This document shows positions 15,074-38,025 of a DNA stretch of 47,580 nucleotides, piece by piece. A program made the translations under genes and the position numbers. The DNA is from Candidatus Nanopelagicaceae bacterium. Its GTDB lineage: Bacteria; Chloroflexota; Dormibacteria; Aeolococcales; Bog-877. Positions within the stretch are counted from its first letter, which is position 1; every line of letters begins with the position of its first letter. The DNA lies in assembly GCA_035531535.1 (NCBI GenBank), contig DATKSV010000003.1:1-47580 (forward strand), read 5' to 3'. The notes under the pieces are model-generated. The model made no database searches and was not told where the DNA came from. It worked only from the letters and a program-made list of their open reading frames with translations.

Positions 15074-15880
15074 CTACCTCGGCTCGCGCCGGAAGGCCCC
15101 GGCACGGAGAACCGGCACCGCCGAGGAGACGTTGAGCGCGGCGGCCCAGTCAAGCTCCCCGGCGTAGCCCCGCTCGATCTGCTCGCGGCCGGACACCGAC
15201 TCCTGCAAGGTCCGGCGCAGTCCGTGACGGCGCGCCTGCAGGTAGACCGCGGCGGCGGCCTGAGCCTCCGGGGATCGCCGCCGCCGGCGGAGTCCGTCGA
15301 TGATCGCGCCGGCGCCAACCAGATCCTCCAGCGCGGGGTCGAGACTGCGATCGGGCCAGCGCTCCCCGGCCGCGATCACCGAGATCACCCCGCCGTGCCG
15401 GCGCGCGAAGCGAGCCACCGCGAAGGCGTTGCGCAGTGAGCCGGCTACCACCTGGGCACCGCTCTCAGATGCCGCCGCCGCCACCGCCGAGCCGTTGGGC
15501 GAGGGCAGCACGATCGAGGTCCCGTGAGGAGCCCGGCTGAGAGTGACAGGCGAGAGCGAGTAGGGGGTCTCCGGCCCCACCTGAGAGCGCCCGACGGCGA
15601 GCTCGGCGCCCACCTTGCCGGCCAGCTTGGCCGCCGCCTCCTGGTCCCAGGGGTGAGGATAGATGGCGCAGTCGCGCTCGACGGCGACGGCCACCGCGGT
15701 GGTGAAGGTGATCACGTCCACCACCACCACCACGTCCGACCCGGGGACCAGGGCCCGTGCCCCTAGCTCCCCCCACCCAAAGCGCACGTTGAAGGGCGCG
15801 CTATCGCGGGCGGCGGCCACCCTGGGTGCGCCGAGGTTGGGGGGATCTGGGACAGCTCCGATAGCGGTGGAGTCAAGCAT
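15074..15880 (-). CDS. comB: 2-phosphosulfolactate phosphatase (ComB) family protein.
   Basis: The ComB signature VVVVDVITFTTAVAVAVE is followed by PSPNGSAVA and a Gly-rich core. Confidence 0.75.
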   Translation of the reverse strand: MLDSTAIGAVPDPPNLGAPRVAAARDSAPFNVRFGWGELGARALVPGSDVVVVVDVITFTTAVAVAVERDCAIYPHPWDQEAAAKLAGKVGAELAVGRSQVGPETPYSLSPVTLSRAPHGTSIVLPSPNGSAVAAAASESGAQVVAGSLRNAFAVARFARRHGGVISVIAAGERWPDRSLDPALEDLVGAGAIIDGLRRRRRSPEAQAAAAVYLQARRHGLRRTLQESVSGREQIERGYAGELDWAAALNVSSAVPVLRAGAFRREPR

Positions 15881-16049: not shown

Positions 16050-17444
16050 GTGCCGCTGCCTAGGACTCTTGGTGAACTACGGGGCAGCGAGTACCGGATG
16101 CGCTCGGTCCGGGAGGAGCTGCGGGACAACCTGATGGCTGCCCTGCGCTCGGGGCAGCCCCTGTTCGCGGGCCTGATCGGCTACCAGGAGACGGTGGTGC
16201 CGCAGGTGGAGAACGCCATCCTGGCGGGCCAGGACATCATCTTCCTGGGCGAGCGCGGGCAGGCCAAGTCGCGCCTGATCCGGGCCTTGACGTCGCTGCT
16301 GGATGAGCAGCTCCCGATCGTCGCCGGCAGCGAGGTCCACGACGATCCCTATGCGCCCATCAGCCGCTTGGGCAGGGACCTGGTGGCCGACTTGGGCGAC
16401 GCCACCCCGATCGAGTGGGTCCCCCGCGACCGCCGCTTCGGGGAGAAGCTGGCCACCCCCGACACCTCCATCGCCGACCTCATCGGCGAGGTCGACCCCA
16501 TCCGGGTGGCCGAGGGTCGCTATCTGGCGGACGAGCTGACCATCCACTACGGCCTGCTCCCGCGGGTCAATCGCGGCATCTTCGCCATCAACGAGCTGCC
16601 CGACCTGGCCGAGAGGATCCAGGTGGGGCTGCTCAACATCATGGAGGAGCGCGACGTCCAGATCCGGGGCTTCCAGGTGCGGCTGCCGCTGGACGTGATG
16701 GTGGTGGCCACCGCCAACCCCGAGGACTACACCAACCGGGGCCGCATCATCACCCCCCTCAAGGACCGCTTCGGGGCCCAGATCCGGACCCACTATCCCC
16801 GCTCCAGCGTCCAGGAGGCAGAGATAATCGAGCAGGAAGGGGCCTCGTTCGAAGGCCTGGGCGTCAACCTGCACGTGCCCGCCTACATGCGCGAGCTGGT
16901 GGCCGAGATCTCCCAGCTGGCCCGCCACACCGCCCAGATAAACCAGCGCTCCGGGGTGTCGGTGCGGCTTTCCATAGCCAACTTCGAGACCATGTGCGCC
17001 AACTCGATTCGGCGCGCGATCCAGCTCGGGGAGCCGGAGGCGGTGCCCCGGATCAGCGACCTGGTGGCCCTCGCCGCTTCCACCTCGGGCAAGCTCGAGC
17101 TGGAAACCTGGGAGGAAGGGGAGGACCAGGTCGTGATCCAGAAACTGGTCCGCGGCGCCATCAGCACCGTCTTCCGTCACCACTTCTCACTGCAGGAGTT
17201 CGCCCCCCTGCTGGCCCGCTTCGAGCAGGGCCTGAGCCTGGAGACCGGGGAGAGGATCCCCGCCTCGCGCTACCTCCAGATGGCGAGCTCACTGCCCGAG
17301 ACCGCCCGCATCCTGGCCGACCTGGACGAGCCCAACCAGCCCGCCTCGGTGGCGGCCGCGTTGGAGCTGGTGCTGGAGGGCTTGCACCTGGCCAAGCGGC
17401 TCAACAAGACCTCGGTGGATGGCACCGCCGTCTACGCCAGCTGA
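16050..17444 (+). CDS. ChlI/MoxR-like AAA+ ATPase (Mg-chelatase-like, Rv0958-type).
   Basis: 464 aa with a Walker A-like GERGQAKSRLIRAL, a Walker B/sensor region (IFAINELPDL, VVATANPEDYTNRGRIITPLKDRFG) and a C-terminal helical domain. Confidence 0.8.
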   Translation: MPLPRTLGELRGSEYRMRSVREELRDNLMAALRSGQPLFAGLIGYQETVVPQVENAILAGQDIIFLGERGQAKSRLIRALTSLLDEQLPIVAGSEVHDDPYAPISRLGRDLVADLGDATPIEWVPRDRRFGEKLATPDTSIADLIGEVDPIRVAEGRYLADELTIHYGLLPRVNRGIFAINELPDLAERIQVGLLNIMEERDVQIRGFQVRLPLDVMVVATANPEDYTNRGRIITPLKDRFGAQIRTHYPRSSVQEAEIIEQEGASFEGLGVNLHVPAYMRELVAEISQLARHTAQINQRSGVSVRLSIANFETMCANSIRRAIQLGEPEAVPRISDLVALAASTSGKLELETWEEGEDQVVIQKLVRGAISTVFRHHFSLQEFAPLLARFEQGLSLETGERIPASRYLQMASSLPETARILADLDEPNQPASVAAALELVLEGLHLAKRLNKTSVDGTAVYAS

Positions 17445-19443
17445 GGGACGCGCGGTGCCGTCCGCACGCCAGCGTTACAGCCGTTGGGACGGCAGCCAGG
17501 AAGGGGACTTCCCCGCCGCCGACGAGGTCTTCTCCCGGTTGGCCGAGGATGTCTTCCATGGCTGGGACTTCGACTCCGCCCTGCGCCGGCTGCTGAGCCA
17601 GGGCTTCAAGGACCCGCAGGGAAGGCGGCTGCCGGGGTTGGAGGGGCTGCTCGAGCAGATCCGGCAGCGCCGCCAGCAGCAGCTCCGGCGCTACAACCTG
17701 GAAGGTCTCTTCCAGGACATAGCGGAGCGCCTCGACGGGATCGTCAAGCGCGAGCGAGAGACCCTGGGGGAGCGCTTGGAGCAAGCCCGGGGCGAGCCCG
17801 GTGGATCTCTGGCACAACGGACCGCCAGCAGCCGGCTGAGCCAGCTCGACCAGCTGCCCCCCGAGCCCGGGTCGGCGATCGGGGAGCTGCAGAACTACGA
17901 GTTCATGGATCCCAGGGCCGAGGCCGACTTCCGGGAGCTGTTGGCCGAGCTTCGGCGCAATCTGGCGGAGTCGCACTTCCAGCAGCTGGGCCAGAGCATG
18001 CAGCAGATGGGCCCCGAACAGGTGGCCCAGATGCGCGCCATGATGGCTGACCTCAACGCGATGCTGGCCCGCCACCTGCGCGGCGAACCCCCTGGCTACG
18101 AGCAGTTCATGGCCAAGTGGGGCGACCTCTTCCCCGATCGCCCCCAGACCCTGGAAGAGTTCCTGGAGCAGTTGCAACGACGCATGGCGGAACTGGATTC
18201 CCTGCTGAAGTCGATGTCGCCGGAGGCGCGTCAGCAGCTCCAGGAGATGCTCGAGGGCGCCCTCTCCGATGAGGCGCTTCAGGCCGAGCTGGAGCAGCTC
18301 GCCCAGCTGATCGGGCAACTGGCCCCGGGCGACGGCGTGGGCAGCCGCTTCGGATTCTCCGGGGCCGAGGAGCTCAGCTTCCCCGAGGCCATGGACATGA
18401 TGGCCCGACTGCAGCGGCTGGAGGCGCTGGAACGCGGCTTGAGCCGCGCCGTGGAGGGGCAGGAGATGCCCTTGGATCTGCTCGAGCAGCTGGACTCGGA
18501 GCTAGGCCCGGAGGCGGCCGCCAGCGTGCGCCGGATCCAGCAGCTGCTGGAGGAGATGGAGCGCAACGGGCAGCTCCGCCGGGGCGAGCAGGGCCTCGAG
18601 CTGACCCCTCAGGGAGTGCGCCGGATCGGCCAGAAGGCCCTCCGCGACATCTTCTCGAATCTGCGCGGCGACCGCTTCGGGGGCCATCGGGTGGACCGTC
18701 CCGGCGGTGGCGGCGACCGCGGGGAGGAGAGCAAGGTCTACGAGTTCGGCGACCCCTTCACCCTGGATGTGGAACGGACCCTGATGAACGCCGTCCGCAG
18801 AGGCGAGGCGCGGGCCCCGCTGCGCCTGCTGACGGAGGACTTCGAGGTGGTGCGGCCGGAACAGACCGTGACCGCCAGCACCGTGCTGATGCTGGACATG
18901 AGCCGGAGCATGCCGCTGCGGGGCTACTTCTACGCCGCCAAGAAGATGGCCCTGGGGCTGGACGCCCTGATCCGCAGCCAGTTCCCCCGGGACAGCCTCT
19001 ACGTGGTGGGCTTCTCCGACTACGCCCGCGAGATCCCTCCCGGCGCGCTGGCTGAACTCTCCTACAGCGAGTATGTGTACGGCACCAACATGCAACACGG
19101 CCTGATGCTGGCGCGGCGCCTGCTCAACCGCCACCGCGGGGGCAACCGCCAGATCATCATCGTGTCGGACGGTGAGCCCACCGCTCACATGGAGGGCGAC
19201 CGAGCGGTGTTCTTCTACCCGCCCCTGCCGGAGACCTTCCAGAAGACCCTGCTGGAGGTCAGGCGCTGCACCCAGGAGAAGATCGTCATCAACACCTTCA
19301 TGCTGGAGAGCAACAGCTTCTTGGTCCAGTTCGTGAACCAGATCACCCGCCTCAACCGCGGCCGGGCCTTCTTTGTCAGCCCCGACCGGCTGGGTGACTA
19401 CGTCCTGGTCGACTATGTCAGTTCGCGGGCCCGCCCCGCCTGA
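17419..19443 (+). CDS. VWA-domain protein with a long coiled-coil Q/E/R-rich N-terminal region (Rv0959-type).
   Basis: 674 aa. The C-terminal VWA / MIDAS-like region reads VLMLDMSRSM...VVGFSDYAREI...IIIVSDGEPTAH. The ORF overlaps the ATPase stop. An alternative GTG start at 17455 lies just after the ATPase stop and has a GAGGGA RBS. Confidence 0.8.
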   Translation: MAPPSTPAEGRAVPSARQRYSRWDGSQEGDFPAADEVFSRLAEDVFHGWDFDSALRRLLSQGFKDPQGRRLPGLEGLLEQIRQRRQQQLRRYNLEGLFQDIAERLDGIVKRERETLGERLEQARGEPGGSLAQRTASSRLSQLDQLPPEPGSAIGELQNYEFMDPRAEADFRELLAELRRNLAESHFQQLGQSMQQMGPEQVAQMRAMMADLNAMLARHLRGEPPGYEQFMAKWGDLFPDRPQTLEEFLEQLQRRMAELDSLLKSMSPEARQQLQEMLEGALSDEALQAELEQLAQLIGQLAPGDGVGSRFGFSGAEELSFPEAMDMMARLQRLEALERGLSRAVEGQEMPLDLLEQLDSELGPEAAASVRRIQQLLEEMERNGQLRRGEQGLELTPQGVRRIGQKALRDIFSNLRGDRFGGHRVDRPGGGGDRGEESKVYEFGDPFTLDVERTLMNAVRRGEARAPLRLLTEDFEVVRPEQTVTASTVLMLDMSRSMPLRGYFYAAKKMALGLDALIRSQFPRDSLYVVGFSDYAREIPPGALAELSYSEYVYGTNMQHGLMLARRLLNRHRGGNRQIIIVSDGEPTAHMEGDRAVFFYPPLPETFQKTLLEVRRCTQEKIVINTFMLESNSFLVQFVNQITRLNRGRAFFVSPDRLGDYVLVDYVSSRARPA

Positions 19444-19446
19444 GCG

Positions 19447-20325
19447 ATGGCGGCATCCCCACTCGACCCATCCCGGCAGCAGTTCTCAGAGCGCCTGCTG
19501 AACCAGCTGCGGTCCCGCTACCCCAGTTGGGACTTCCAGCCCGCCGACCAAGGATTCGCAATCTCCGCCAGGAAGGAGCAGGCTCGGCTCTCACTCTCCT
19601 TGACCACTCTCTACCAGGCGGCGGCGGCGCCGGGATCGCTGGCCCCGGCCGAGATCTTGCGCTTCGTCCAAGCCGCCGGCCCCAGGCTCAGCGCGGCCGA
19701 GGCTGCGCCGGTGCCGGAGGGTGGGGTGCCCGACCCGGAGGCCCTGGTGTGGTGTGTGCGCACCCAGAAGGTGATCAGCCGCTACCCCCGCGCGGGTGAG
19801 CTGGTGACCAGGGAGCTTCCGGGCGGCCTGCTGGCGTTCGTGTCGGAGGCCCTCCCCGGCGAAATCATGCGCGGGGTATCCCTGAAGCAGGCGGCGGAGG
19901 GGGGCCTCAACGAGGCCGAGCTGGTGCGTCGTTCCGACCACAACACGGCGGTGCGGCTGCAGCGTTGGGAGCAACAGTTGGCGACATCTCCCCGCCAGGG
20001 CCGCTGGATCTTCCGCCACGACGTGCTCTTCTCCAGCAGCCTGCTGCTGGTGCCGCCGTTCCTGCAAGCGGTGGCGGCGCGCGGCCAGGGCAGCGCCGCC
20101 CTTCTGGTGCCGGACCGGGGCACCCTGGTGGCGGCGATCGGGGAGGGGGCTCAGCCGCAGCAGCTACGCCATGTCGCCCGCCGCCTCTACGGCATGGCCG
20201 ACAGCCCCCTCATCCCCTACCTGCTGCTGACCGACGGGCACAGCCTGGCGCTCCATCCCTCCGAGGCCGAGCCACGGCGCCCCTGGTCAGGCTGGCGCCA
20301 GCTCCTGGGAATGAGAGGGTGGTGA
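19447..20325 (+). CDS. Hypothetical protein encoded between the VWA and NlpC/P60 genes.
   Basis: 292 aa. It starts 4 nt after the VWA stop and overlaps the next gene's start by 4-7 nt, so it is translationally coupled. No motif was recognised. Confidence 0.55.
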   Translation: MAASPLDPSRQQFSERLLNQLRSRYPSWDFQPADQGFAISARKEQARLSLSLTTLYQAAAAPGSLAPAEILRFVQAAGPRLSAAEAAPVPEGGVPDPEALVWCVRTQKVISRYPRAGELVTRELPGGLLAFVSEALPGEIMRGVSLKQAAEGGLNEAELVRRSDHNTAVRLQRWEQQLATSPRQGRWIFRHDVLFSSSLLLVPPFLQAVAARGQGSAALLVPDRGTLVAAIGEGAQPQQLRHVARRLYGMADSPLIPYLLLTDGHSLALHPSEAEPRRPWSGWRQLLGMRGW

Positions 20326-21200
20326 ACCCCGTCAGCGCCCCGCCAGCGCTGCTGACGGCACTGGATGGCCTGCGGGAGGAGGCGGCTCAGCGCTATGGGG
20401 CGCCCCCGCTGGTGGGCCTGACGGTGGTGCCCCGGGGCCTTCTGGGCTGGGTCGCCACCCCGGCTCAGGCGGACCAGGTGGCGGCGCTCGTGGCCGAGCT
20501 CTGGCCGGGAGCCAGGGCTCGCCTGCTGGTGCTGGGGGAGCGCCGGGCCCGGGTCGGCCTGCATGCGGTCACGCCGGCGCTCAACGTCTGGCGGACGCCT
20601 CCCGCGCCGGGGACCGAGCCGGAGCGAGTCACTCAGCTGCTTCCCGGGGACCCCCCAGCCGAGGTGATCGCGATCCGCCCCGGCCGTTTCCTGGTGCGAG
20701 CCCCGGGCCACGCCCTGGGGTGGGTGGCCCGGGGTGCCGGCTACCGCCTGGGCACGCCCTCTCCGGAGGGGGATCCGCCGGTCGACATCACCCAAGGTAC
20801 GGCCAGTTGGAGCCCCGAGCGGGTGCTGGCCGCAGCGCTGGCTTACGAGGGGCAACCGTACGTCTGGGGTGGCACCGGCGCCACCGGCATGGACTGCTCT
20901 GGCCTGCTCTGGCGGGCTTTCCTGACCGAGGGAATCCTGCTCCCCCGCAACAGCCGGGCGCAGCGCCGCCTGGGGCTCCGGGTGCGCCGCGAGGAGCTCC
21001 AGCCGGCCGACCTCCTGGGAGCGATCAGCCGGGGACAGCGGCGCTTCAGTCACGTGGCCCTGATGCTCGGCCCGGGCGAGGTGCTCCATGCCTGCAGTGA
21101 GCGCAGTCGAGTCCGCCGCGAGCCGCTGGCTGACTTCGAGCGCCGCTATCGGGTGCTGAGTGTGCGCCGCTTGCCGGGAGGCGTGAGCCCAGGACGGTAA
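20319..21200 (+). CDS. NlpC/P60 (C40) family peptidase with an N-terminal domain of unknown function.
   Basis: A GTG start overlaps the upstream stop and has a GAGAGG RBS. The C-terminal NlpC/P60 signature is GQPYVWGGTGATGMDCSGLLWRAF...HVALMLGPGEVLHA, consistent with a Cys-His catalytic pair. The upstream part of the track ORF 19965.. was trimmed. Confidence 0.75.
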   Translation: MVNPVSAPPALLTALDGLREEAAQRYGAPPLVGLTVVPRGLLGWVATPAQADQVAALVAELWPGARARLLVLGERRARVGLHAVTPALNVWRTPPAPGTEPERVTQLLPGDPPAEVIAIRPGRFLVRAPGHALGWVARGAGYRLGTPSPEGDPPVDITQGTASWSPERVLAAALAYEGQPYVWGGTGATGMDCSGLLWRAFLTEGILLPRNSRAQRRLGLRVRREELQPADLLGAISRGQRRFSHVALMLGPGEVLHACSERSRVRREPLADFERRYRVLSVRRLPGGVSPGR

Positions 21201-21210
21201 TCTTCACTGG

Positions 21211-22764
21211 GTGAACCCCCCGACCCCTGCGGCGAGCCCGACCCCCGGAGCGGCGCTCGGCCCGCTGCGCCTGCCTCCGGCGCTTCAGGGCCTGCGGGAG
21301 CAGCGCGTTGACGTGATCGGGGTGGCCAGCGTCGAAGGCGGCGAGATGGCCGGCTACCTGCTGGCAGCCGGCTTCACCAAGGTGGTCGGCCACGATCTCC
21401 AAGCCGACCTGGAACAGCTCCGTCGAGCCCACCATCTGGCCCACGCCGGGGTCGCTGAGCCAGAGCGCCAGGCCCACCTGGAGCGGCTCCTGAGCGGCCT
21501 TGCCGGGCTCCACCTGGGGCCGGAGTACCTCGCCGGGATCGAGGACTCGGCGCTGCTGATTCCAACTCAGGCCTGGTTTATGCAAGCGGCCAATCTGAAG
21601 CTGGCTCAACTTAGGGACGAGGGCCGGCCCTTCTACTCCCTGATCCAGGCCTATCTCGACCTGGCCAGCGGCCCGGTGGTGGGGATCACGGGCAGCCACG
21701 GCAAGTCCACCACCGCCGCCCTGGTGACAGCCGCCCTCTCCCACGCCCAGATGTTCCCCGAGGTCTGGCTGGCCGGCAATGACCGGCACAACCGCCAGGC
21801 CCTGGAGCAGGTGGCCCGAGACGAGCTGGGAGCGGGCTGCCTGGTGCTGGAGATCTCCAACCGCCAGCTGCTCCAGATGGACCGCGCGCCGGCGCTGGCC
21901 GCGATCACCAACATCACCCCCAATCACCTCGAGGAGCACTCCGGGATGGCCGGCTACATCGCCTGCAAGCGGCGCATCTTCGACCTGCCCGGATGCCGGG
22001 TCGCGGTCCGCAACGGAGACGACCAGATCAGCCTTGGCACCGGCGCCGTCAGGGAGGGCATCAGGGAGCTCCGCTTCGCCGCCGCCCTGGCCGGGCTCGG
22101 GAGCTGCGACGGAAGCTTCGAGGAGGGCGGCGCGGTCTGGCTGACCAGGCAGGGCGATCGAGCCCTGGCGCTGGAGATCGAGCGCCTGCGCCTGCGCGGC
22201 GCCCACAACCTGGCCAATGTGAGGGCGGCGGTGGCCATCTGCGCCGGCCTGGACGAGTTCCGGCCAGAGCTTCTGCCGAAATTGGCCGGGGGGCTGGAGA
22301 GCTTCGGCACCCTGGCTCACCGCATCCAGCTGGTCTGGCAGGAGGCGGGAGTTGACTACTACGACGACCTCTCCAGCACCACCCCGCAGTCGACCGTGGC
22401 CGCGCTTCGGACGATCGGACGCCCCTGCGTGCTGATCGCGGGCGGCCAGGACAAGGGCATCGCCTTCGACCAGCTGGCGGACGAGGTCGGGCGCTCGCTG
22501 GCGGCGGTGGTGCTGCTGCCGGGAGCGGGTTCGGACCGGCTCCTGGGGGCGATCAGGGAGATGGGTGCTGGGGAGTCGGTGCACCGGACCGGCGATCTGG
22601 AAAGCGCCGTGGGGATCGCCCGCCGACTGGCCCGACCTGGCGATGCCATCCTGCTCTCGCCCGCCTGCCCGGGCTTCTTCTCGGCGAACTATCAGGCAGG
22701 CGGATTCCGACAGTCGGTGCGCCGGCTCTCTACTTCTCCTCGTCGACGAACGGGGCCAGCGTGA
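21211..22764 (+). CDS. Mur ligase family protein (MurD-like amino-acid ligase paralogue) lying outside any dcw cluster.
   Basis: 517 aa with the Mur-ligase P-loop VGITGSHGKSTTAALV, ITNITPNHLEEH, a Rossmann-like N-terminal region and a MurD-like C-terminus (AILLSPACPGFFSANYQAGGF). Confidence 0.8.
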   Translation: MNPPTPAASPTPGAALGPLRLPPALQGLREQRVDVIGVASVEGGEMAGYLLAAGFTKVVGHDLQADLEQLRRAHHLAHAGVAEPERQAHLERLLSGLAGLHLGPEYLAGIEDSALLIPTQAWFMQAANLKLAQLRDEGRPFYSLIQAYLDLASGPVVGITGSHGKSTTAALVTAALSHAQMFPEVWLAGNDRHNRQALEQVARDELGAGCLVLEISNRQLLQMDRAPALAAITNITPNHLEEHSGMAGYIACKRRIFDLPGCRVAVRNGDDQISLGTGAVREGIRELRFAAALAGLGSCDGSFEEGGAVWLTRQGDRALALEIERLRLRGAHNLANVRAAVAICAGLDEFRPELLPKLAGGLESFGTLAHRIQLVWQEAGVDYYDDLSSTTPQSTVAALRTIGRPCVLIAGGQDKGIAFDQLADEVGRSLAAVVLLPGAGSDRLLGAIREMGAGESVHRTGDLESAVGIARRLARPGDAILLSPACPGFFSANYQAGGFRQSVRRLSTSPRRRTGPA

Positions 22765-22903
22765 AAGGCTCCAGGGCCACCACCTCGAAGGCGGCTCCAC
22801 AATTCGGGCAGTCGACCAGGTCGCCCACCTCCTCCGCCTCGGTGAGGTCCAATTCGGCCCCACAGTCGGGACATTCGCTTGCCCTATCGGACGCTGGTGC
22901 CAA
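22730..22903 (-). CDS. LysW/ArgW-like zinc-ribbon small acidic protein (candidate amino-group carrier protein) of 57 aa, not in the ORF track.
   Basis: The minus-strand translation is (L/M)APASDRASECPDCGAELDLTEAEEVGDLVDCPNCGAAFEVVALEPFTLAPFVDEEK*. It fits the LysW pattern of two CxxC zinc-ribbon motifs, GELV-C..CGAE.EVV.L.P, and an acidic tail. A TTG start follows a GGAGGAGAAGAGGA purine run. It overlaps the MurD-like 3' end by 35 nt in convergent orientation. Confidence 0.5.
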   Translation of the reverse strand: MAPASDRASECPDCGAELDLTEAEEVGDLVDCPNCGAAFEVVALEPFTLAPFVDEEK

Positions 22904-22917
22904 TCCTCTTCTCCTCC

Positions 22918-23979
22918 ATGCCCAGTCCTGACCCCGGGCCCGGCCCGGGGCAGTGGGATCACGCCGGCCTGTTTCAGGCGAGTGTACCCAGTGCGGCGCA
23001 GCTGAGCTTGGGCGAGGGCTGGACCCAGCTCCAGGCCGCCCGGGAGCTGGGCCTTGAGCTCGGGATCGCCGAGCTGTGGCTGAAGCGGGAAGACCTCTCC
23101 CCCACCGGCTCGCACAAGGCGCGCAGCCTCGGCCTCATGGTCTCGGACCTCAAGGCGCGCGGGATCTCGCAGGCGGTCATCTCCTCCTCCGGCAATGCGG
23201 CGGTGGCGGCGGCCGCGTTCTGCTCCCTGGCAGGGATCCGGTTGCTCAGCCTGGTCTCGCCCCGCACCGCGGCGGTCAAGCTCTCCGCCCTGCTCCGGCA
23301 GCCCCAGTTGGTGGTCGTAAGCGAGCACCCGGTCGCCCTCTTGCACCATGCCGTGACGGCGTGGGGGATGGCCGACCTGCGCACCTCGACCAACCGGCTG
23401 GGATCCGCCGCCTACCGCGGGATCGCCGCCGAGCTGGTGCCCGAGGGGCCCTGGCAGGCGGTCTTCGCGTTCGCCAACAGTGGCGCCACGGTACTCGGCC
23501 TGGCCGAAGGATTCAATCTCCTGCTCGCCGCTTCCGAACGGCCCCGGATGCACCTGGTCGAGGCCACCCCGGGGGGCGAGCTGACCAGGGCCTGGTACCC
23601 GCGGGGGCAGCGGACGGAGGCGTCGGGGGTCGGCGACCTAGGCACCCGGCGGAGCCGGCTGTCGCCGAGGGTGAGGCGGGTCGTCCGGGAGAGCGGGGGC
23701 CGAGGGTGGCGCGTCGGCCGGGCCAAGATGGAGGAAGCCCTGGCCCTGGGCGAGCGGCACGGAGTGGCCACGTCGTGGGAGGGGCTGGCCTCCCTGGCCG
23801 CGGCCCGGGAGGCCGCCCGCGAGGGTGGCGGCGGCAGGTGGGCGGTGGTTCTGAGCGGGGCTGCGGAACAGCTCGACCTGAGCCCGGTAGACCCCACCCC
23901 CACTGCGGCCGCGAGCACCCCTGGGGAGCTCGACCGGATCCTGACGGCGGCCGGCTTCGGGGCTGGGAGCGGCGCTTGA
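22918..23979 (+). CDS. PLP-dependent fold-type II enzyme (threonine synthase-like).
   Basis: It carries the PLP-lysine motif LWLKREDLSPTGSHKARSLG and a Gly-rich SSGNAAVAAAA stretch. The C-terminal region aligns with the threonine synthase / TrpB family pattern. The ATG at 22918 was chosen; the track used a TTG at 22879 that would overlap the LysW-like gene. Confidence 0.7.
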   Translation: MPSPDPGPGPGQWDHAGLFQASVPSAAQLSLGEGWTQLQAARELGLELGIAELWLKREDLSPTGSHKARSLGLMVSDLKARGISQAVISSSGNAAVAAAAFCSLAGIRLLSLVSPRTAAVKLSALLRQPQLVVVSEHPVALLHHAVTAWGMADLRTSTNRLGSAAYRGIAAELVPEGPWQAVFAFANSGATVLGLAEGFNLLLAASERPRMHLVEATPGGELTRAWYPRGQRTEASGVGDLGTRRSRLSPRVRRVVRESGGRGWRVGRAKMEEALALGERHGVATSWEGLASLAAAREAAREGGGGRWAVVLSGAAEQLDLSPVDPTPTAAASTPGELDRILTAAGFGAGSGA

Positions 23980-23987
23980 ACTCGGCG

Positions 23988-25208
23988 ATGGTATTCTTCG
24001 TCGGACCCGAGCCGGTGCCGGCTCTGGCCAGTGGGCTGCCGGTGATCTGCGCCGACGGCTGCGGGATCACCGATGCCGACCTGAGAGCCTTTCCGGAGGC
24101 GGGGCGGTCCAGTCAGGCCCTCTTGGACTGGGCCCCGGCGCAGCAGCTGCTGGCTGAGCGCGCCAGTGGCGTCGCCGTCTGGAAGAGCTCGGTCGCCACC
24201 GAGAGGCGGGCGGCTCAGCTCGGCCTGACCCTCGCCAACAGCCCCGCCAAGATCGCCCGGCGGCTCGAGAACAAGGCCTATTTCAGCCCGGCGGCGGCCC
24301 GGGCGGGTCTGCCGGTTCCCAGGATGGTGGGGGGTCCGGCCGGGCCCGAGTTGCTGGCGCCAGCGCTCGAGCTCGGGCCGGCCCTGGTCTTCCAGCTCGC
24401 GCACGGGTTCTCCGGGGCAGCCACCTATCCGGTCTCATCGGAGCCGGAGCTGCGCCGGCTGCTGCTGCGATTCGTGGGCCAGACCTGTCGCATCGCCGAG
24501 GTGGTGCCGGGGACCGCGGTGACCGTGACCGGAGTCGCCTTCGCCGACCGGATCGTGACCGGGCCGGCGTGCCTCCAGCTGACCGGGATCCCGGCGCTCA
24601 CCCCGCATCCCATGGGCTCCTGCGGCAACGACTTCCAGGCTCTGGTGCCGCACCGGGAGGTGGTGGAGGGCACCGCCGCCCAAGTCGGCGAGTGGCTTCG
24701 CCAGGAGGGACACCGCGGCGTCTTCGGGGTCGACCTGGTGGTAGCGGACGACGGTCGATGCTGGTGCATCGAGGCCAACCCGCGCCTGGTGGCGTCGGTG
24801 CCGCTCTGGACGCTCTCGGCCCGCGATCGCGGCGAGCGCTCGCTCCTGGACCAGCACCTGGGCTGCTTCGGCCTGGGCCAGCCGTCCGCCAGCCCCCTGC
24901 ACTGCCATTGGTCCCAGCTGATTCTCTACCAGGTGGGCGACGCCCCCGGGCCGGCGGCGGGGCCGGGCCAGCGCGCGGTGGAGACGGCCCGGGGCAAACC
25001 CGGCCCCGACGGCGGCTTCGCCGCCAGCGGCCCACTCAGCCTAGAAGGGCCCACGGCCGGCGAGGTCGCGCTGATCGTAAGGGCCGGCGCCCGACCCGGG
25101 CACGAGCTGGCTCGGCTGATCACAGATCGCCCCTTGACGTCTGCAGACGGCGAGTTGCTGCCCGAATGGATGGCCCTGGTGGGCCAGGTGCGGAGCCGGC
25201 TGGAGTAG
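23988..25208 (+). CDS. ATP-grasp domain enzyme.
   Basis: 406 aa from MVFFVGPEP, starting 8 nt after the PLP gene stop. ATP-grasp motifs are present (KAYFSPAAARAGLPVPRMV, GVFGVDLVVADDGRCWCIEANPRL). The upstream 23076..23987 of the track ORF is an out-of-frame overlap and was trimmed. Confidence 0.7.
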   Translation: MVFFVGPEPVPALASGLPVICADGCGITDADLRAFPEAGRSSQALLDWAPAQQLLAERASGVAVWKSSVATERRAAQLGLTLANSPAKIARRLENKAYFSPAAARAGLPVPRMVGGPAGPELLAPALELGPALVFQLAHGFSGAATYPVSSEPELRRLLLRFVGQTCRIAEVVPGTAVTVTGVAFADRIVTGPACLQLTGIPALTPHPMGSCGNDFQALVPHREVVEGTAAQVGEWLRQEGHRGVFGVDLVVADDGRCWCIEANPRLVASVPLWTLSARDRGERSLLDQHLGCFGLGQPSASPLHCHWSQLILYQVGDAPGPAAGPGQRAVETARGKPGPDGGFAASGPLSLEGPTAGEVALIVRAGARPGHELARLITDRPLTSADGELLPEWMALVGQVRSRLE

Positions 25209-25262
25209 GCCCGGCAGCCCCCCAACCGTTTCACGGAGGCTCCGAGGCGGTACCTTGAAGGT

Positions 25263-26333
25263 GTGGAATTCCGCGATTACTACGCCACCTTGGGAGTGCC
25301 TCGAACCGCCTCCGAGAAGGAGATCCGCTCCTCCTACCGCAAGCTGGCCAGGGAGCTCCATCCCGACGTCAACAAGGATCCCAAGGCCACCGAGCGGTTC
25401 AAGCGCGTCAACGAGGCCCACGAGGTGCTCAAGGACCCTGAAAAGCGCTCCAAGTACGATCGGCTCGGGGCGGACTGGGAGCAGCTCGAGAAGGCGCAGG
25501 CTAGCCGGCCCAGGCAGCCCCAGACGCCGTTCCAGAGCGCCGGCCGGCAGAGCGGCGCCCGGTTCGGGGGCTTCAGCGACTTCTTCGAGACCTTTTTCAG
25601 CGGCCACAGCGGCAATGCCGAGGACCCTCTGGTGGAGGCCGAGCTGGACCGGCTCCGGCGCGAGCAGTCGGCCCCCAGGCGAGGCCAGGACAGCGAGCAC
25701 CAGGTGGAGGTCACGCTCCGCGAGGCGGCCGAGGGCAGCGAGCGCACCCTCCAGCTCTCGATGTCGGAGACCTGCCCATCCTGCCACGGCACCGGACTGG
25801 TGCAGGAATCCGGGGACGGCGGCGGGACGACGGTCAAGACGGCGGTGAAGACCTGTCCCACCTGTCAGGGAACCGGGCGGCAGACCCGGCGCCGCAGCCT
25901 CAAGGTGACCATCCCCAAGGGCGTGACCGAGGGCTCGCGGATCCGAGTCGCCGGCGAGGGCACCGCCGGTCCCAACGGGGGCAACCGCGGCGACCTGTAC
26001 CTCCGGGCGCACCTGGAGTTGGAACCCGGCACCGAGGTCCGGGGGCGCGACGTCTACACCGAGATTCCGGTTCGCGACTACCGCGCGGCTCTGGGCGGGA
26101 GCGTGACCACCCAGGGGCTGACCGGCCGGCTTGAGGTCACAGTTCCCCCCAGCTGCCCGTCCGGGCGGACTATGCGGGTCCCCGGGAAGGGCATCCCAGC
26201 CCTGAGGGCCGGGGGCAAGGGAGGGGACCTCTTCCTCAAGGTGCGGGTTACCGCATCGACCAGGTCGCCCCTCGAGGAGGCTGAGCGCAAGGCCTATCTG
26301 GAACTGGCCAAGGCCGACGGACAGAGCGTCTGA
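25263..26333 (+). CDS. dnaJ: DnaJ-class molecular chaperone with a J domain, a CxxCxGxG zinc finger and a C-terminal domain.
   Basis: The J domain reads DYYATLGVPRTASEKEIRSSYRKLARELHPDVNKDP with HPD. The zinc-finger repeats are CPSCHGTG and CPTCQGTG. The start is a GTG. Confidence 0.85.
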   Translation: MEFRDYYATLGVPRTASEKEIRSSYRKLARELHPDVNKDPKATERFKRVNEAHEVLKDPEKRSKYDRLGADWEQLEKAQASRPRQPQTPFQSAGRQSGARFGGFSDFFETFFSGHSGNAEDPLVEAELDRLRREQSAPRRGQDSEHQVEVTLREAAEGSERTLQLSMSETCPSCHGTGLVQESGDGGGTTVKTAVKTCPTCQGTGRQTRRRSLKVTIPKGVTEGSRIRVAGEGTAGPNGGNRGDLYLRAHLELEPGTEVRGRDVYTEIPVRDYRAALGGSVTTQGLTGRLEVTVPPSCPSGRTMRVPGKGIPALRAGGKGGDLFLKVRVTASTRSPLEEAERKAYLELAKADGQSV

Positions 26334-36709: not shown

Positions 36710-38025
36710 AAGAGCTGCTACTTCGCAAGGTCCGGATCGTCGACCCCGTCGGGGGCAAGGACCGCGACAGCTACGACTTGCTGATCCGAGACGGGATCGT
36801 GGCCGAAATGGCGAGCAAGCTGGTCCTGCCCGCCGGCGGGGTGGTGCTGGAACGGCCCGGCAGCGTGGTCAGCCCCGCCTTCCTCGACCTCCACTGCCAC
36901 CTCCGTGAGCCCGGGCAGCCATGGAAGGAGCGCATCGCCAACGCCACCGCGGCGGCCGCGGCGGGCGGCTTCGGGGCGATCTGCGCCATGGCGAATCTGC
37001 AGCCGCCGCTGGACACTGAGCCGCGGCTGCGCCAGGCGCGCAGCAAGAACCGCTCCTGGGGCCGGATTCCCATCTTGCAGTTCGCAGCCTGCAGCACCGG
37101 CCTGCGCGGCCAGGAGCTGGTCGACATGGAGGGCCTGGTCGCCGCCGGCGCCGCTGGCTTCTCCGACGACGGCCGCCATGGCTGCGACCAGCGGATTCTG
37201 GCGGAGGGGCTGGCCCGCGCCCACTCCCTGGGCCGCCTCGTTGCCATTCACCCCGAGGACGAGCGCATCGTCGCCATGGCCAACGAATGGTCGGGGAGCG
37301 ACCCCACCGCCTGGAGCCTGCGTCCGGCGGAGGCGGAGGAGGCGGCGGTGACATCCGCGATCGCGGCGCTGCGGGATGCCGAGGTGGGCCGGCTCCACCT
37401 GCAGCACCTGACCACCGCCACCTCCGTGACCCTGGTTCGCCAGGCGAAGTCGGAAGGGCTGGCGCTGACGGCGGAGGTTACCCCCCATCACCTCATGCTC
37501 AGCGGCTTCCTGCGGGACCCCGACGTCCCCGGGCTCAATCTGACCTGCAACCCGCCGCTGCGCACGGAGGCGGATCGAGCCGCCCTCTGGGAGGGTCTGT
37601 TGGACGGCACCATCGACGCCATCGCCAGCGACCACGCTCCCCATGAGGTGCCCACCGATCCCCTGCAGAGGCGCCCGCCGGGGTTCAGCGGGGTCCAGGC
37701 CGTGCTCTCCGTGGTGCTCGGCCACCAGGATTCCGGCTCGCATCTGACCCGGATCGTGGCAGCTCTCAGCGCCGGCCCCCTCAGGGTCCTGGGGGCGGCC
37801 GCGGAAGGGCTCCCCAGCACCGGGATCCAGGTCGGCGAGCCGGCCCACCTCACCTGGTTCGATCCGGCCGGCAGATGGACCCCTGACCGGAGCTCATGGC
37901 TGTCGCTGGGAACCAACACCCCCTTCTGGCACCAGCAGCTGCGGGGCACCGTGCTGGCCACCTTCTCGCGCGGCCGGGCGGTGTACATAAGCCGCGGGCT
38001 GGGCGCGGAGATCGAACTTGACTGA
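36706..38025 (+). CDS. pyrC: Dihydroorotase.
   Basis: A GTG start overlaps the pyrR stop. Metal-ligand motifs are present (DLHCHLREPG, ASDHAPH). Confidence 0.9.
   Translation: MKELLLRKVRIVDPVGGKDRDSYDLLIRDGIVAEMASKLVLPAGGVVLERPGSVVSPAFLDLHCHLREPGQPWKERIANATAAAAAGGFGAICAMANLQPPLDTEPRLRQARSKNRSWGRIPILQFAACSTGLRGQELVDMEGLVAAGAAGFSDDGRHGCDQRILAEGLARAHSLGRLVAIHPEDERIVAMANEWSGSDPTAWSLRPAEAEEAAVTSAIAALRDAEVGRLHLQHLTTATSVTLVRQAKSEGLALTAEVTPHHLMLSGFLRDPDVPGLNLTCNPPLRTEADRAALWEGLLDGTIDAIASDHAPHEVPTDPLQRRPPGFSGVQAVLSVVLGHQDSGSHLTRIVAALSAGPLRVLGAAAEGLPSTGIQVGEPAHLTWFDPAGRWTPDRSSWLSLGTNTPFWHQQLRGTVLATFSRGRAVYISRGLGAEIELD

What the first reader, a model, noticed from the sequence alone, without database searches (positions are those of the whole stretch)
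22730..22903. The LysW-like ORF is absent from the ORF track, uses a TTG start, ends in -DEEK instead of the canonical C-terminal Glu, and convergently overlaps the MurD-like gene by 35 nt.
Canonical LysW/ArgW carriers end with a C-terminal Glu (EDWGE-type tail) whose gamma-carboxyl carries the substrate. Here two CxxC pairs and the GDLV-C..CGAAFEVV.LEP core are present, but the tail is PFVDEEK. Either this is a non-carrier zinc-ribbon relative, or the attachment chemistry differs, or there is a sequencing error at the 3' end. The gene is shorter than 60 aa and lies on the strand opposite to all its neighbours. Automated annotation would therefore miss it.
Basis: seen in the sequence. Interest (0 to 1): 0.55.

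Follow-up and report, generated by a model that had tools for sequence, protein, structure and literature searches.

The report
LysW-like carrier ending in Glu-Glu-Lys
The small reverse-strand ORF is a real, conserved gene for a LysW-type zinc-ribbon protein with an invariant ...EEK tail; it always travels with a MurD-like ligase, a YkfC-like peptidase, a threonine-synthase-like PLP enzyme and an ATP-grasp ligase, which points to an undescribed carrier-protein step in making the bacterial cell-wall peptide, not to lysine biosynthesis.

Summary
ORF 22730-22903(-) has a TTG start, encodes 57 aa, ends in -FVDEEK, and overlaps the MurD-like gene convergently by 35 nt. It is a real gene: Pfam Zn_ribbon_LysW scores E=5.5e-14, identity to solved LysW structures is 50-55%, and substitutions are biased to third codon positions. 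The tail is not a sequencing error. [F/Y/L/I]-x-[D/E]-E-E-K is invariant in all 33 Dormibacterota orthologues and in hundreds of relatives from Chloroflexota, Patescibacteria (CPR), Planctomycetota and others.

Annotation pipelines do call the gene, but mislabel it "lysine biosynthesis protein LysW". It lacks the defining features of LysW: there is no C-terminal Glu, no LysX/RimK-type ligase, and no LysZYJK.

Instead it belongs to a conserved module: YkfC-like NlpC/P60, MurD-like ligase, zinc ribbon, ThrC-like PLP enzyme, and a PurK/PylC/BesA-like ATP-grasp. In CPR genomes this module sits in the murD slot of the dcw cluster. In one complete cluster it stands where MurD should be.

Best reading (inferred): the protein is a carrier whose terminal Lys tethers an amino acid, probably Glu via its gamma-carboxyl, for processing and incorporation at stem-peptide position 2. 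The held literature does not describe this.

The parts
22730..22903 (-). Gene for a 57-aa LysW-fold zinc-ribbon protein (ZnR). It has two CxxC pairs (C11/C14, C32/C35), a net charge of about -13, and the invariant C-terminal tail F-x-D-E-E-K.
   Evidence: The AF2 model's top 5 PDB hits are all LysW chains at 50-55% identity.
22911..22917 (-). Shine-Dalgarno-like GGAGGAG, 9 nt upstream of the TTG start of ZnR. It lies opposite the ATG of the PLP-enzyme gene.
   Evidence: Read directly from the sequence.
22730..22764 (.). 35-nt convergent (tail-to-tail) overlap between ZnR and the MurD-like gene. The last 11 codons of the ligase are antisense to the PFVDEEK* codons.
   Evidence: The same 35-nt overlap occurs in every Dormibacterota-type locus examined. 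CPR loci show overlaps of 32-47 nt or short gaps.
21211..22764 (+). MurD-like Mur ligase ('mur*', 517 aa). The ATP and catalytic residues are intact, but the pocket for the incoming amino acid is altered.
   Evidence: TIGR01087 murD scores 175 bits, below the 212 cut-off. The best PDB hits are MurD. Family-wide residue table.
20322..21200 (+). Cytoplasmic NlpC/P60 cysteine peptidase (292 aa), with Cys-His-His present and no signal peptide.
   Evidence: Pfam NLPC_P60, E=2e-18. The best PDB hit is 3h41, B. cereus YkfC, a gamma-D-Glu-L-diamino-acid endopeptidase. Alignment.
22918..23979 (+). Fold-type II PLP enzyme, threonine-synthase-like (353 aa). Its PLP lysine lies in PTGSHKAR, and the SSSGN loop is invariant. 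The start codon is only 14 nt from the ZnR start, head to head.
   Evidence: Pfam PALP, E=6e-36. The family profile matches ThrC structures best, at 6e-39. Alignment.
23976..25208 (+). ATP-grasp ligase (410 aa from TTG 23976, which overlaps the PALP stop; alternatively ATG 23988). It belongs to the PurK/PurT/L-amino-acid-ligase/PylC/BesA structural group, not the LysX/RimK group.
16050..20325 (+). MoxR-like AAA ATPase (16050-17444), Rv0959-like VWA protein (17419-19443) and an unknown 292-aa protein (19447-20325). They are syntenic with the module only in Dormibacterota, so they are probably not part of the core module.

Best explanation
ZnR is the small carrier ('swinging-arm') protein of a conserved five-component module: a YkfC-like NlpC/P60 peptidase, a MurD-like ligase (mur*), ZnR, a ThrC-like PLP enzyme and a PurK/PylC/BesA-like ATP-grasp ligase. 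The module serves synthesis of the peptidoglycan stem peptide, not lysine biosynthesis.

Shown:
- ZnR is a true LysW homologue whose tail is shorter than LysW's and invariably ends ...[D/E]-E-E-K.
- The five genes co-occur across phyla.
- In CPR bacteria they lie between mraY and ftsW, which is the murD slot.

Inferred mechanism:
1. The acidic zinc-ribbon domain docks on each enzyme, as LysW does. The tail inserts its terminal Lys, whose epsilon-amine is the attachment point. This is the reverse polarity of LysW, which uses a terminal Glu gamma-carboxyl.
2. The ATP-grasp ligase activates a free amino-acid carboxylate and tethers it to Lys-N-epsilon. The most likely substrate is the gamma-carboxyl of L-Glu, as in BesA. 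PylC supplies the precedent for Lys-N-epsilon as the acceptor amine.
3. The tethered residue keeps a free alpha-amine and alpha-carboxylate. The PLP enzyme can therefore act on it; L-to-D epimerisation is proposed.
4. mur* couples UDP-MurNAc-L-Ala to its alpha-amine.
5. The gamma-D-glutamyl-specific NlpC/P60 peptidase cleaves the gamma-Glu-Lys isopeptide. [quoted passage not shown]

Confidence splits as follows. About 0.95 that it is a real gene of a distinct EEK-tailed LysW subfamily. About 0.55 that it is a tail-mediated carrier or scaffold in a peptidoglycan-precursor pathway. About 0.2 for the specific epsilon-(gamma-glutamyl)lysine / D-Glu chemistry.
For: Real gene and LysW fold:
- Pfam hit E=5.5e-14.
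- Profile against PDB: LysW 3wwl at 3.6e-13 and 5k2m at 1.9e-11.
- AF2 model plus Foldseek: the top 5 hits are all LysW chains.
- Third-position substitution bias.

Invariant tail:
- 33/33 orthologues carry it.
- 76 genome loci give FEEEEK 37, FEDEEK 23, FVDEEK 15 and minor variants.
- 77 of 78 further relatives end in EEK.

Module:
- phmmer of the window proteins against 83 loci finds NlpC/P60, mur*, PALP and ATP-grasp next to ZnR in Dormibacterota, Chloroflexota, CSSED10-310, Planctomycetota and Myxococcota-like MAGs, in several gene orders, including fully co-directional operons.
- CPR loci show the same.

Peptidoglycan link:
- L084: mraY-...-NlpC-mur*-ZnR-PALP-ATPgrasp-ftsW-murG-ftsA, and its mur* passes the murD equivalog cut-off at 260.7 against 211.95.
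- L091 and L086/87: the module without mur* lies between mraY and ftsW.
- L093: a complete dcw cluster with murE, murC-like, murA, murF-like, mraY, ftsW, murG, ftsA and ftsZ, but no MurD. ZnR-PALP-ATPgrasp occupy the murD slot.
- A NagZ-like gene is adjacent in 8 loci.

mur* residues:
- Catalytic residues are invariant.
- T321 and K348, which from memory contact the D-Glu alpha-carboxylate, are kept.
- Positions 414-416 change to P-G-F, K319 is lost, F161 becomes an invariant Arg, and D182 becomes Asn. From memory, this segment contacts the gamma-carboxylate.
- A414P and L416F are the residues seen in L-Glu-adding MurD2, and K319T relaxes chirality (PMC8788868).

Peptidase: the best solved relative is YkfC, specific for gamma-D-Glu-L-diamino acid.

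Against: - There is no biochemical evidence of any kind. The attachment site and the tethered molecule are inferred.
- No ThrC-like enzyme is known to be a racemase. The PLP enzyme's nearest relatives, at 6e-39, catalyse beta,gamma-chemistry on O-phosphohomoserine, which the model does not use.
- In the window, and in all Dormibacterota, the module is not in a dcw cluster. It lies next to MoxR/VWA, DnaJ and pyr genes.
- I could not check whether these genomes lack canonical MurD, MurI or D-amino-acid transaminase.
- In peptidoglycan, gamma-D-Glu is linked to the alpha-amine of the diamino acid, not to an epsilon-amine.
- L093 has neither mur* nor NlpC/P60 near the trio.
- The window's mur* scores below the MurD cut-off, and its N-terminal domain does not align to the MurD profile.
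Confidence: 0.45

Rival explanations
1. Lys-as-cargo model. The genetically encoded terminal Lys is itself the tethered substrate, held through its alpha-amine exactly as in LysW-gamma-Lys. The PLP enzyme adds an alanyl or homoalanyl unit to its epsilon-amine by beta/gamma-replacement, or the ATP-grasp acylates it. NlpC/P60 then cuts the Glu-Lys* bond to release a lysine-derived diamino acid or dipeptide. mur* reloads free Lys onto the terminal Glu, a MurE-like Glu-to-Lys ligation.
For: - Typical fold-type II chemistry is beta-replacement; ThrC, SbnA and CysK relatives appear.
- The terminal E-K dipeptide is the most conserved part of the tail.
- mur* keeps the alpha-carboxylate-binding T321 and K348 but replaces the gamma-carboxylate pocket with P-G-F-F. 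That would also suit an aliphatic Lys side chain. The invariant Arg at position 161 could bind the acidic tail.
- The ATP-grasp resembles PylC, which acylates Lys-N-epsilon.
Against: - mur* is MurD-like, sits in the murD slot, and in L084 passes the MurD equivalog threshold. A Rossmann-type N-domain resembling MurC's UDP-binding domain is retained.
- YkfC-type peptidases cleave gamma-D-Glu bonds, not alpha-L-Glu-L-Lys peptide bonds.
- Some CPR loci lack mur* next to the other genes, which would leave no reloading enzyme nearby.
Confidence: 0.15
2. C-terminal extension scaffold, as in pearlins, RimK or tubulin tyrosination. The ligases add one or two amino acids to the alpha-carboxylate of the terminal Lys (or to Glu side chains). 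The appended residue is modified, and the peptidase trims it off to regenerate ...EEK.
For: - The module contains two ATP-dependent carboxylate-amine ligases and one peptidase.
- Carrier-peptide logic has precedents: LysW, and the pearlins discussed in PMC9303977, listed.
- The acidic EE-X terminus resembles the S6/RimK and tubulin-EEY substrates (own knowledge).
Against: - A residue attached through its alpha-amine cannot form a PLP aldimine, so the invariant PLP enzyme has no obvious substrate.
- No PEARL/LanB-like gene is present in any neighbourhood.
Confidence: 0.1
3. ZnR is a non-catalytic partner. It would be a regulatory, chaperoning or substrate-mimicking subunit of the MurD-like ligase or of the enzyme complex. 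Its Glu-Lys terminus would mimic the gamma-D-Glu-Lys end of the stem peptide, and nothing would be covalently attached.
For: - There is tight genetic coupling to mur*, including the conserved tail-to-tail overlap.
- The antisense arrangement could set stoichiometry.
- The E-K terminus resembles stem-peptide positions 2-3.
Against: - Close homology, 50-55% identity, to a protein whose only known role is covalent carrier.
- ZnR stays with PALP and ATP-grasp even where mur* is not adjacent.
- An absolutely invariant terminal residue is typical of a reactive handle.
Confidence: 0.12
4. ZnR is the canonical LysW/ArgW amino-group carrier of lysine or arginine biosynthesis, as the public annotations say.
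For: - NCBI and JGI name it LysW.
- Pfam Zn_ribbon_LysW is above its cut-off, and TIGR01206 is only just below (50.4 against 53.2).
Against: - There is no C-terminal Glu/EDWGE tail.
- No LysX, LysZ, LysY, LysJ or LysK is present in any of about 90 loci. A canonical EDWGE LysW retrieved by the same tools is followed by exactly those five genes.
- The family is common in CPR bacteria, which have very limited biosynthetic capacity (abstracts listed; own knowledge).
Confidence: 0.03
5. Chance ORF, or an artefact of a 3' sequencing error.
For: It is short, has a TTG start, lies on the opposite strand and overlaps a neighbour.
Against: - Highly significant family matches.
- Hundreds of orthologues with an identical tail.
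- The codon-position substitution pattern.
- A Shine-Dalgarno sequence at the right distance.
Confidence: 0.005

Closest known systems
LysW/ArgW amino-group carrier proteins (AmCP) of Thermus, Sulfolobus and Thermococcus
   Same: The zinc-ribbon globular domain is homologous (50-55% identity; E=3.6e-13 to 3wwl). Both are very acidic and about 55 aa long, with a flexible acidic C-terminal tail after the conserved PLxLE segment. Both are encoded with an ATP-grasp ligase and a release peptidase.
   Different: The tail is about 5 residues shorter and ends in Lys (EEK) instead of Glu (EDWGE), so the reactive side chain would be an amine rather than a carboxylate. The partner ligase is not of the LysX/RimK clade. 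There is no kinase, reductase, aminotransferase or M20 peptidase; the partners are a Mur ligase, a ThrC-like PLP enzyme and NlpC/P60. The genomic context is cell-wall synthesis, not amino-acid synthesis.
[quoted passage not shown]
   Same: A MurD paralogue with an altered Glu pocket (Pro and Phe at EcMurD positions 414 and 416, as in mur*) works with extra, ATP-dependent machinery encoded next to it. This supplies the D-configured residue 2 without a glutamate racemase.
   Different: MurL is a single protein that epimerises the nucleotide-bound dipeptide. No carrier protein, PLP enzyme or peptidase is involved. The module proteins gave no MurD2 or MurL family hit among the reported Pfam and NCBIfam matches.
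CysO-CysM-Mec+ protein-bound cysteine biosynthesis (Mycobacterium; own knowledge)
   Same: A small carrier protein presents its C-terminus to a fold-type II PLP enzyme, and a dedicated peptidase then releases the amino-acid product from the carrier.
   Different: CysO has a ubiquitin-like beta-grasp fold ending in GG-thiocarboxylate and is activated by an E1-like adenylase. The system here uses a zinc ribbon ending in Lys and acyl-phosphate-forming ligases.
[quoted passage not shown]
   Same: It is the best solved relative of the module's NlpC/P60 protein. It is cytoplasmic, has the Cys-His-His triad, and cleaves the bond between gamma-D-Glu and Lys or DAP, which is the bond type the model requires.
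   Different: YkfC recycles free murein peptides with a free N-terminal L-Ala. The enzyme here is encoded with biosynthetic ligases and a carrier protein. The CPR versions are strongly diverged and carry inserts.
PylC and BesA ATP-grasp ligases
   Different: Both act on free small molecules. Sequence identity to the module's enzyme is only 11-18%, and the PurK/PurT relatives score slightly higher.

Membership tests
LysW/ArgW amino-group carrier protein | Cys4 zinc-ribbon globular domain homologous to LysW | tested here: met
   PF21344 scores 52 bits against a cut-off of 27. Profile against PDB: 3wwl at E=3.6e-13 and 5k2m at 1.9e-11. Foldseek's top 5 hits are LysW chains, probability 1.0.
LysW/ArgW amino-group carrier protein | C-terminal Glu (EDWGE-type tail) whose gamma-carboxyl carries the substrate | tested here: not met
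   The tail is ...FVDEEK. The terminal Lys is invariant in 33/33 orthologues and in all EEK-family relatives. Canonical members in the same searches end in EDWGE.
LysW/ArgW amino-group carrier protein | Co-encoded LysX/ArgX ligase of the RimK ATP-grasp clade | tested here: not met
LysW/ArgW amino-group carrier protein | Neighbouring LysZ kinase, LysY reductase, LysJ aminotransferase and LysK M20 peptidase | tested here: not met
   None is present in the window or in about 90 related loci. All are present beside canonical LysW.
LysW/ArgW amino-group carrier protein | Reaches NCBIfam equivalog thresholds (TIGR01206, NF041070) | tested here: not met
   TIGR01206 scores 50.4 against 53.2. NF041070 scores 37.5 against 75.
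LysW/ArgW amino-group carrier protein | Covalent loading of a substrate on the tail | not testable with these tools
   This needs mass spectrometry of the protein with its partner enzymes.
EEK-tailed LysW-like module (proposed here, not a named family) | Terminal [F/Y/L/I]-x-[D/E]-E-E-K, and adjacency to NlpC/P60, a MurD-like ligase, a ThrC-like PLP enzyme and a PurK/PylC-like ATP-grasp | tested here: met
   All five genes lie in window 20322-25208. The same set occurs in loci from at least 6 phylum-level groups.
[quoted passage not shown] | Mur-ligase ATP and catalytic residues: P-loop K115, E157, H183, carbamylated K198, N271, R302, D317 | tested here: met
   These residues are invariant or nearly invariant (at least 61 of 63) in 63 mur* sequences.
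[quoted passage not shown] | Canonical D-Glu pocket (D182, K319, A414-S415-L416) and the equivalog score | tested here: not met
   The substitutions are D182N, K319S/N/A/Q, A414P, S415G and L416F. The window protein scores 175, below the 212 cut-off. The CPR orthologue in L084 does pass, at 260.7.
Pearlin/PEARL carrier peptides | A LanB-like peptide aminoacyl-tRNA ligase encoded next to the scaffold peptide | tested here: not met
   No such gene appears among the Pfam-annotated neighbours in any locus.

The most novel reading that the evidence does not exclude
Dormibacterota, many Chloroflexota and a large part of the Candidate Phyla Radiation would make or install residue 2 of the peptidoglycan stem peptide on a protein carrier. 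L-Glu would be tethered by its gamma-carboxyl to the epsilon-amine of the C-terminal Lys of a LysW-like zinc ribbon, and epimerised there by a ThrC-derived PLP enzyme. [quoted passage not shown] This would be a third route to D-Glu in the cell wall, besides MurI/Dat and MurD2/MurL. It would also be the first 'carboxyl-group carrier' counterpart of the amino-group carrier proteins.
Probability: 0.2. Interest if true: 0.9.

Novelty: new variant of a known kind. Interest (0 to 1): 0.74.

Why it matters
LysW-type carrier proteins are known only from lysine and arginine synthesis and from a few Streptomyces natural-product pathways, always with a terminal Glu. This work identifies a large, phylogenetically broad subfamily, with 680 database clusters matching the family profile at E<=1e-3. 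It has the opposite terminal chemistry and a completely different enzyme set, and public databases misname it as a lysine-biosynthesis protein.

Its placement in the murD slot of CPR division/cell-wall clusters, in one case where MurD itself is missing, makes a concrete and testable claim. An essential, supposedly universal early step of peptidoglycan synthesis may run differently in lineages that make up a large share of bacterial diversity. That bears on genome-based metabolic reconstruction of CPR and Dormibacterota, on the evolution of carrier-protein metabolism, and on MurD and MurI as antibiotic targets.

Tried and rejected
- The search for related loci with the diverse EEK alignment failed because no conserved 7-10-column stretch exists. 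I replaced it with a degenerate DNA pattern for CxxCG..E..P..[DE]EEK-stop. This has 0 expected chance hits in the window and found 76 genome loci.
- The pattern forces the EEK ending. I therefore judged tail invariance from profile searches that do not force it.
- Literature searches found nothing describing this subfamily or module: LysW + Mur ligase (0 papers); Mur ligase/NlpC/ATP-grasp/zinc ribbon; 'LysW-like'/PF21344; MurD/D-glutamate/threonine synthase/carrier protein.
- PADLOC gave no defence-system match for any module protein.
- The sigma-70 promoter scan around the head-to-head ZnR/PALP starts found nothing. It is uninformative for this phylum.
- Rfam found no RNA family in the window.
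- All-against-all clustering of flanking ORFs in non-Dormibacterota loci found no further universally conserved partner, only lineage-specific synteny such as NagZ, glyoxalase, arginine deiminase and an MBL hydrolase.
- I considered a cyanophycin-like protein-primed polymer (ATP-grasp plus Mur ligase resembling the CphA1 G and M domains) and poly-gamma-glutamylation (PgsB/PgdS analogy). I rejected both as the main reading. mur* is specifically MurD-like (cyanophycin synthetase E=0.11), and neither idea explains the PLP enzyme or the dcw placement.
Full report
**1. The observation**

The window is 69.6% G+C. ORF 22730..22903 on the minus strand encodes MAPASDRASECPDCGAELDLTEAEEVGDLVDCPNCGAAFEVVALEPFTLAPFVDEEK. 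It starts with TTG at 22903, and GGAGGAG at 22917-22911 gives a 9-nt Shine-Dalgarno spacing. It stops at TAG 22732-22730. The MurD-like gene (21211..22764, +) stops at 22762-22764, so the two genes converge and overlap by 35 nt.

At the default 60-aa threshold the ORF is not listed, whereas a spurious 60-aa ORF in another frame is. All coding-like ORFs from 16050 to 26333 are on the + strand.

The ORF's GC by codon position (0.71/0.45/0.79) is coding-like. Among 38 distinct Dormibacterota orthologues, pairwise differences fall 4810/4505/12907 on codon positions 1/2/3 of this frame. This is a real, selected gene.

**2. What the protein is**

- Pfam Zn_ribbon_LysW matches at E=5.5e-14, 52 bits against a cut-off of 27. 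The NCBIfam equivalog TIGR01206 is just missed, at 50.4 against 53.2.
- A profile of the family finds T. thermophilus LysW (3wwl, E=3.6e-13) and T. kodakarensis LysW (5k2m, 1.9e-11) as the best solved proteins.
- An AlphaFold model (pLDDT 80) has LysW chains as its five best PDB matches, at 50-55% identity.
- The protein is extremely acidic: 15 Asp/Glu against 2 Lys/Arg, read from the sequence.

The globular domain is therefore LysW. The tail is not. It is about five residues shorter than the ...EEAEDWGE tail of T. thermophilus LysW, and it ends in Lys.

**3. The tail is not an error**

The 32 closest database relatives are 63-95% identical, come from Candidatus Dormibacteria MAGs, and all end F-x-D-E-E-K. 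Many are already annotated by NCBI or JGI as 'lysine biosynthesis protein LysW'. Pipelines therefore do not miss the gene.

A profile search of 1.84 billion representatives shows a large set of short LysW-like proteins from other lineages ending -EEEK or -EEK. They are clearly separate from canonical members ending -EDWGE.

A degenerate DNA pattern found 76 loci in species-representative genomes. These cover Dormibacterota, Anaerolineae, Caldilineae, Ardenticatenales, CSSED10-310, Planctomycetota, 'Deltaproteobacteria' and others. Their tails are FEEEEK 37, FEDEEK 23, FVDEEK 15 and minor variants.

A second protein search, which returned 680 clusters at E<=1e-3, added CPR/Patescibacteria, Firestonebacteria and Poribacteria. 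Of 78 new sequences, 77 end in EEK.

**4. The neighbourhood is a conserved module**

In the window the gene lies between a MurD-like ligase and a fold-type II PLP enzyme. An ATP-grasp protein follows, and an NlpC/P60 peptidase lies upstream.

phmmer with these window proteins against six-frame ORFs of 83 loci finds the same four enzymes beside the EEK protein almost everywhere, in different gene orders. Examples are:
- ZnR>NlpC>Mur>PALP>ATP-grasp, fully co-directional, in L009, L032, L054 and L077.
- Mur>ZnR>PALP>ATP-grasp in L028, L064, L069, L079 and L083.
- The inverted ZnR arrangement of the window in all Dormibacterota.

The MoxR-like ATPase, VWA protein and 292-aa protein upstream are conserved only in Dormibacterota. 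No further universal partner was found. A low-GC member in L004 has ZnR>NlpC/P60>Mur>PALP.

As a control, a canonical ...EEEDWGE LysW retrieved in the same search is followed by LysX (RimK), LysY, LysZ, LysJ and LysK. None of these occurs near any EEK protein.

**5. Link to peptidoglycan**

In CPR contigs the module sits inside the division/cell-wall cluster.

- L084 reads mraY - PaaX-like - NlpC/P60-like - mur* - ZnR (opposite strand) - PALP - ATP-grasp - ftsW - murG - x - ftsA. Its mur* passes the MurD equivalog cut-off, at 260.7 against 211.95.
- L086, L087 and L091 have NlpC-like - ZnR - PALP - ATP-grasp between mraY and ftsW, with no Mur ligase there. L091 also shows murE, murC, murA, ddl and murF, but no murD.
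- L093 is a complete cluster: rsmH - ftsL - ftsI - murE - x - murC-like - murA - murF-like - mraY - [ZnR, PALP, ATP-grasp] - ftsW - murG - x - ftsA - ftsZ. It has no MurD, and the trio sits exactly where murD belongs.
- Other CPR loci place the module next to FtsEX/PcsB, a PAP2 phosphatase and envelope glycosyltransferases.
- Eight Myxococcota-like loci have a NagZ-like gene adjacent.
- Every Mur ligase beside an EEK protein is of the mur* type. No canonical MurD occurs in any held locus.

The convergent mur*/ZnR arrangement, with overlaps of 32-47 nt or short gaps, is shared by Dormibacterota, CPR and some Chloroflexota.

**6. The enzymes**

*mur\** (63 sequences aligned to E. coli MurD).
- Invariant or nearly invariant: K115, T117, N138, E157, S159, H183, K198, N271, R302, D317, T321 and K348.
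- Family-specific changes: F161 to Arg (63/63), S160 to Asn, D182 to Asn (57/63), K319 to Ser/Asn/Ala/Gln (60/63), A414 to Pro, S415 to Gly/Tyr/Phe, and L416 to Phe (59/63).
- According to PMC8788868, D182, K348, A414 and L416 surround D-Glu. The L-Glu-adding MurD2 has Glu, Arg, Pro and Phe at these positions, and K319T lets E. coli MurD accept L-Glu.
- mur* is therefore an active ligase whose amino-acid pocket differs systematically from MurD. It is partly MurD2-like.
- From memory of the MurD product complex, T321 and K348 contact the alpha-carboxylate of D-Glu, and the 415-416 region contacts the gamma-carboxylate. On that basis the alpha-carboxylate contacts are kept and the gamma-carboxylate contacts are lost.

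*NlpC/P60.* The catalytic Cys/His/His are present, there is no signal peptide, and the best solved relative is 3h41. [quoted passage not shown] The CPR versions are divergent but keep DCSG and the His.

*PLP enzyme.* The family profile matches threonine synthases best (2zsj at 6e-39). Dehydratases (1e-24), SbnA (1e-18) and Asp/Ser racemases (1e-17 to 1e-15) follow. Invariant residues include the PLP Lys, the SSSGN loop and an Arg in NLRPS.

**7. Mechanism (inference)**

Any explanation must account for four things:
- a LysW-type docking domain with an invariant terminal Glu-Lys;
- two acyl-phosphate-forming ligases;
- a PLP enzyme, which needs a free alpha-amine on whatever it binds;
- a peptidase of a family that cleaves gamma-D-Glu-Lys/DAP bonds.

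It must also fit the MurD step of cell-wall synthesis.

The scheme that uses every part runs as follows.
1. The ATP-grasp tethers L-Glu through its gamma-carboxyl to the epsilon-amine of Lys57. BesA and PylC supply precedents for each half of that reaction.
2. The PLP enzyme acts on the still-free alpha-centre. Epimerisation is proposed.
3. mur* joins UDP-MurNAc-L-Ala to the tethered residue. This would explain why only the gamma-carboxylate side of its pocket changed, and why an invariant Arg appears where the acidic tail would lie.
4. The YkfC-like peptidase releases only the D-form. That makes the conversion unidirectional and regenerates the carrier.

This is LysW logic with the polarity reversed. 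I give about 0.55 to the general claim, a tail-mediated carrier in a peptidoglycan-precursor pathway, and about 0.2 to this exact chemistry.

Weak points:
- No ThrC-like racemase is known.
- In Dormibacterota the module is not in a dcw cluster.
- Absence of MurI and MurD could not be checked.
- The natural stem-peptide bond is to an alpha-amine, not an epsilon-amine.

Rivals are set out separately: Lys as cargo with mur* reloading it, C-terminal extension scaffold, non-covalent regulator or mimic, canonical LysW, and artefact.

**8. Comparison with what is known, and novelty**

The protein fails every defining feature of LysW/ArgW except the fold (see the membership table). The closest concepts are:
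- the amino-group carrier proteins;
- the MurD2/MurL bypass for D-Glu;
- CysO-CysM-Mec+ protein-bound cysteine synthesis.

Four targeted full-text searches found no description of an EEK-tailed LysW relative or of this gene set. That library is incomplete, so prior description elsewhere cannot be excluded.

I rate it a new variant of a known kind. It is a LysW-family carrier recruited, with different end chemistry and different enzymes, to what looks like cell-wall precursor synthesis.

Noticed in passing
window 22901-22920: The ZnR start (TTG 22903, minus strand) and the likely PLP-enzyme start (ATG 22918, plus strand) are head to head, only 14 nt apart. The ZnR Shine-Dalgarno sequence lies opposite the PALP start codon, and PALP has no recognisable SD of its own. 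The whole ZnR mRNA would be antisense to any read-through transcript of the mur*-PALP operon. This may be a stoichiometry or regulatory device.
   Followed up: partly
L093 1-20159 (JGI Ga0210057_1000219): This is a complete CPR dcw cluster (rsmH to ftsZ) with murE, murC-like, murA, murF-like, mraY, ftsW and murG, but no MurD-type ligase. ZnR-PALP-ATP-grasp occupy the murD slot. The 'MurC' scores below its equivalog cut-off (243 against 335) and scores nearly as well as Mpl (189).
   Followed up: partly
L091 17718-18482 and L093 15249-16025: A gene of about 255 aa lies between murE and murC in these CPR dcw clusters. In L091 it weakly resembles arginyltransferase (E=4e-14). It could be a Fem/aminoacyl-transferase-like enzyme for stem-peptide branching.
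   Followed up: no
window 38018-42460: A single 1480-aa ORF fuses the carbamoyl-phosphate synthase small (glutaminase) and large chains (a CarA-CarB fusion). It lies in a pyr cluster with pyrB-, pyrC- and phosphoribosyltransferase-like genes. The same 1485-aa fusion occurs in L001-L003.
   Followed up: no
window 16050-20325: A MoxR-like AAA ATPase, an Rv0959-like VWA protein and an unknown 292-aa protein lie immediately upstream of the NlpC/P60 gene with overlapping or abutting ends. They are syntenic in all Dormibacterota loci but absent from the module elsewhere.
   Followed up: partly
L016, L017, L041, L070: These contigs carry Dormibacterota-type loci: the same gene order, the 35-nt overlap and DEEK/DEEEK tails. 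They are deposited in MAGs labelled Acidiferrales, Micrarchaeaceae/Micrarchaeia archaeon and Verrucomicrobiia, and are probably mis-binned.
   Followed up: no
L027, L033, L052, L054, L061, L067, L077: In high-GC Myxococcota-like MAGs (labelled 'Rickettsiales' or 'Deltaproteobacteria'), a NagZ-like GH3 beta-N-acetylhexosaminidase and a glyoxalase-fold protein flank the module. This is another hint of a link to murein metabolism.
   Followed up: partly
window 15074-15880 (-): A ComB-like 2-phosphosulfolactate phosphatase homologue (PF04029) is divergently placed upstream of the MoxR gene. It is conserved at this position in L001-L003.
   Followed up: no
proteins P0033-P0180: Many other LysW-like zinc ribbons exist with quite different tails, such as long poly-acidic tails ending in W/DW/EW, and as tandem two- or three-ribbon proteins of 100-200 aa. 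The LysW fold has apparently been reused for several uncharacterised tail chemistries.
   Followed up: no
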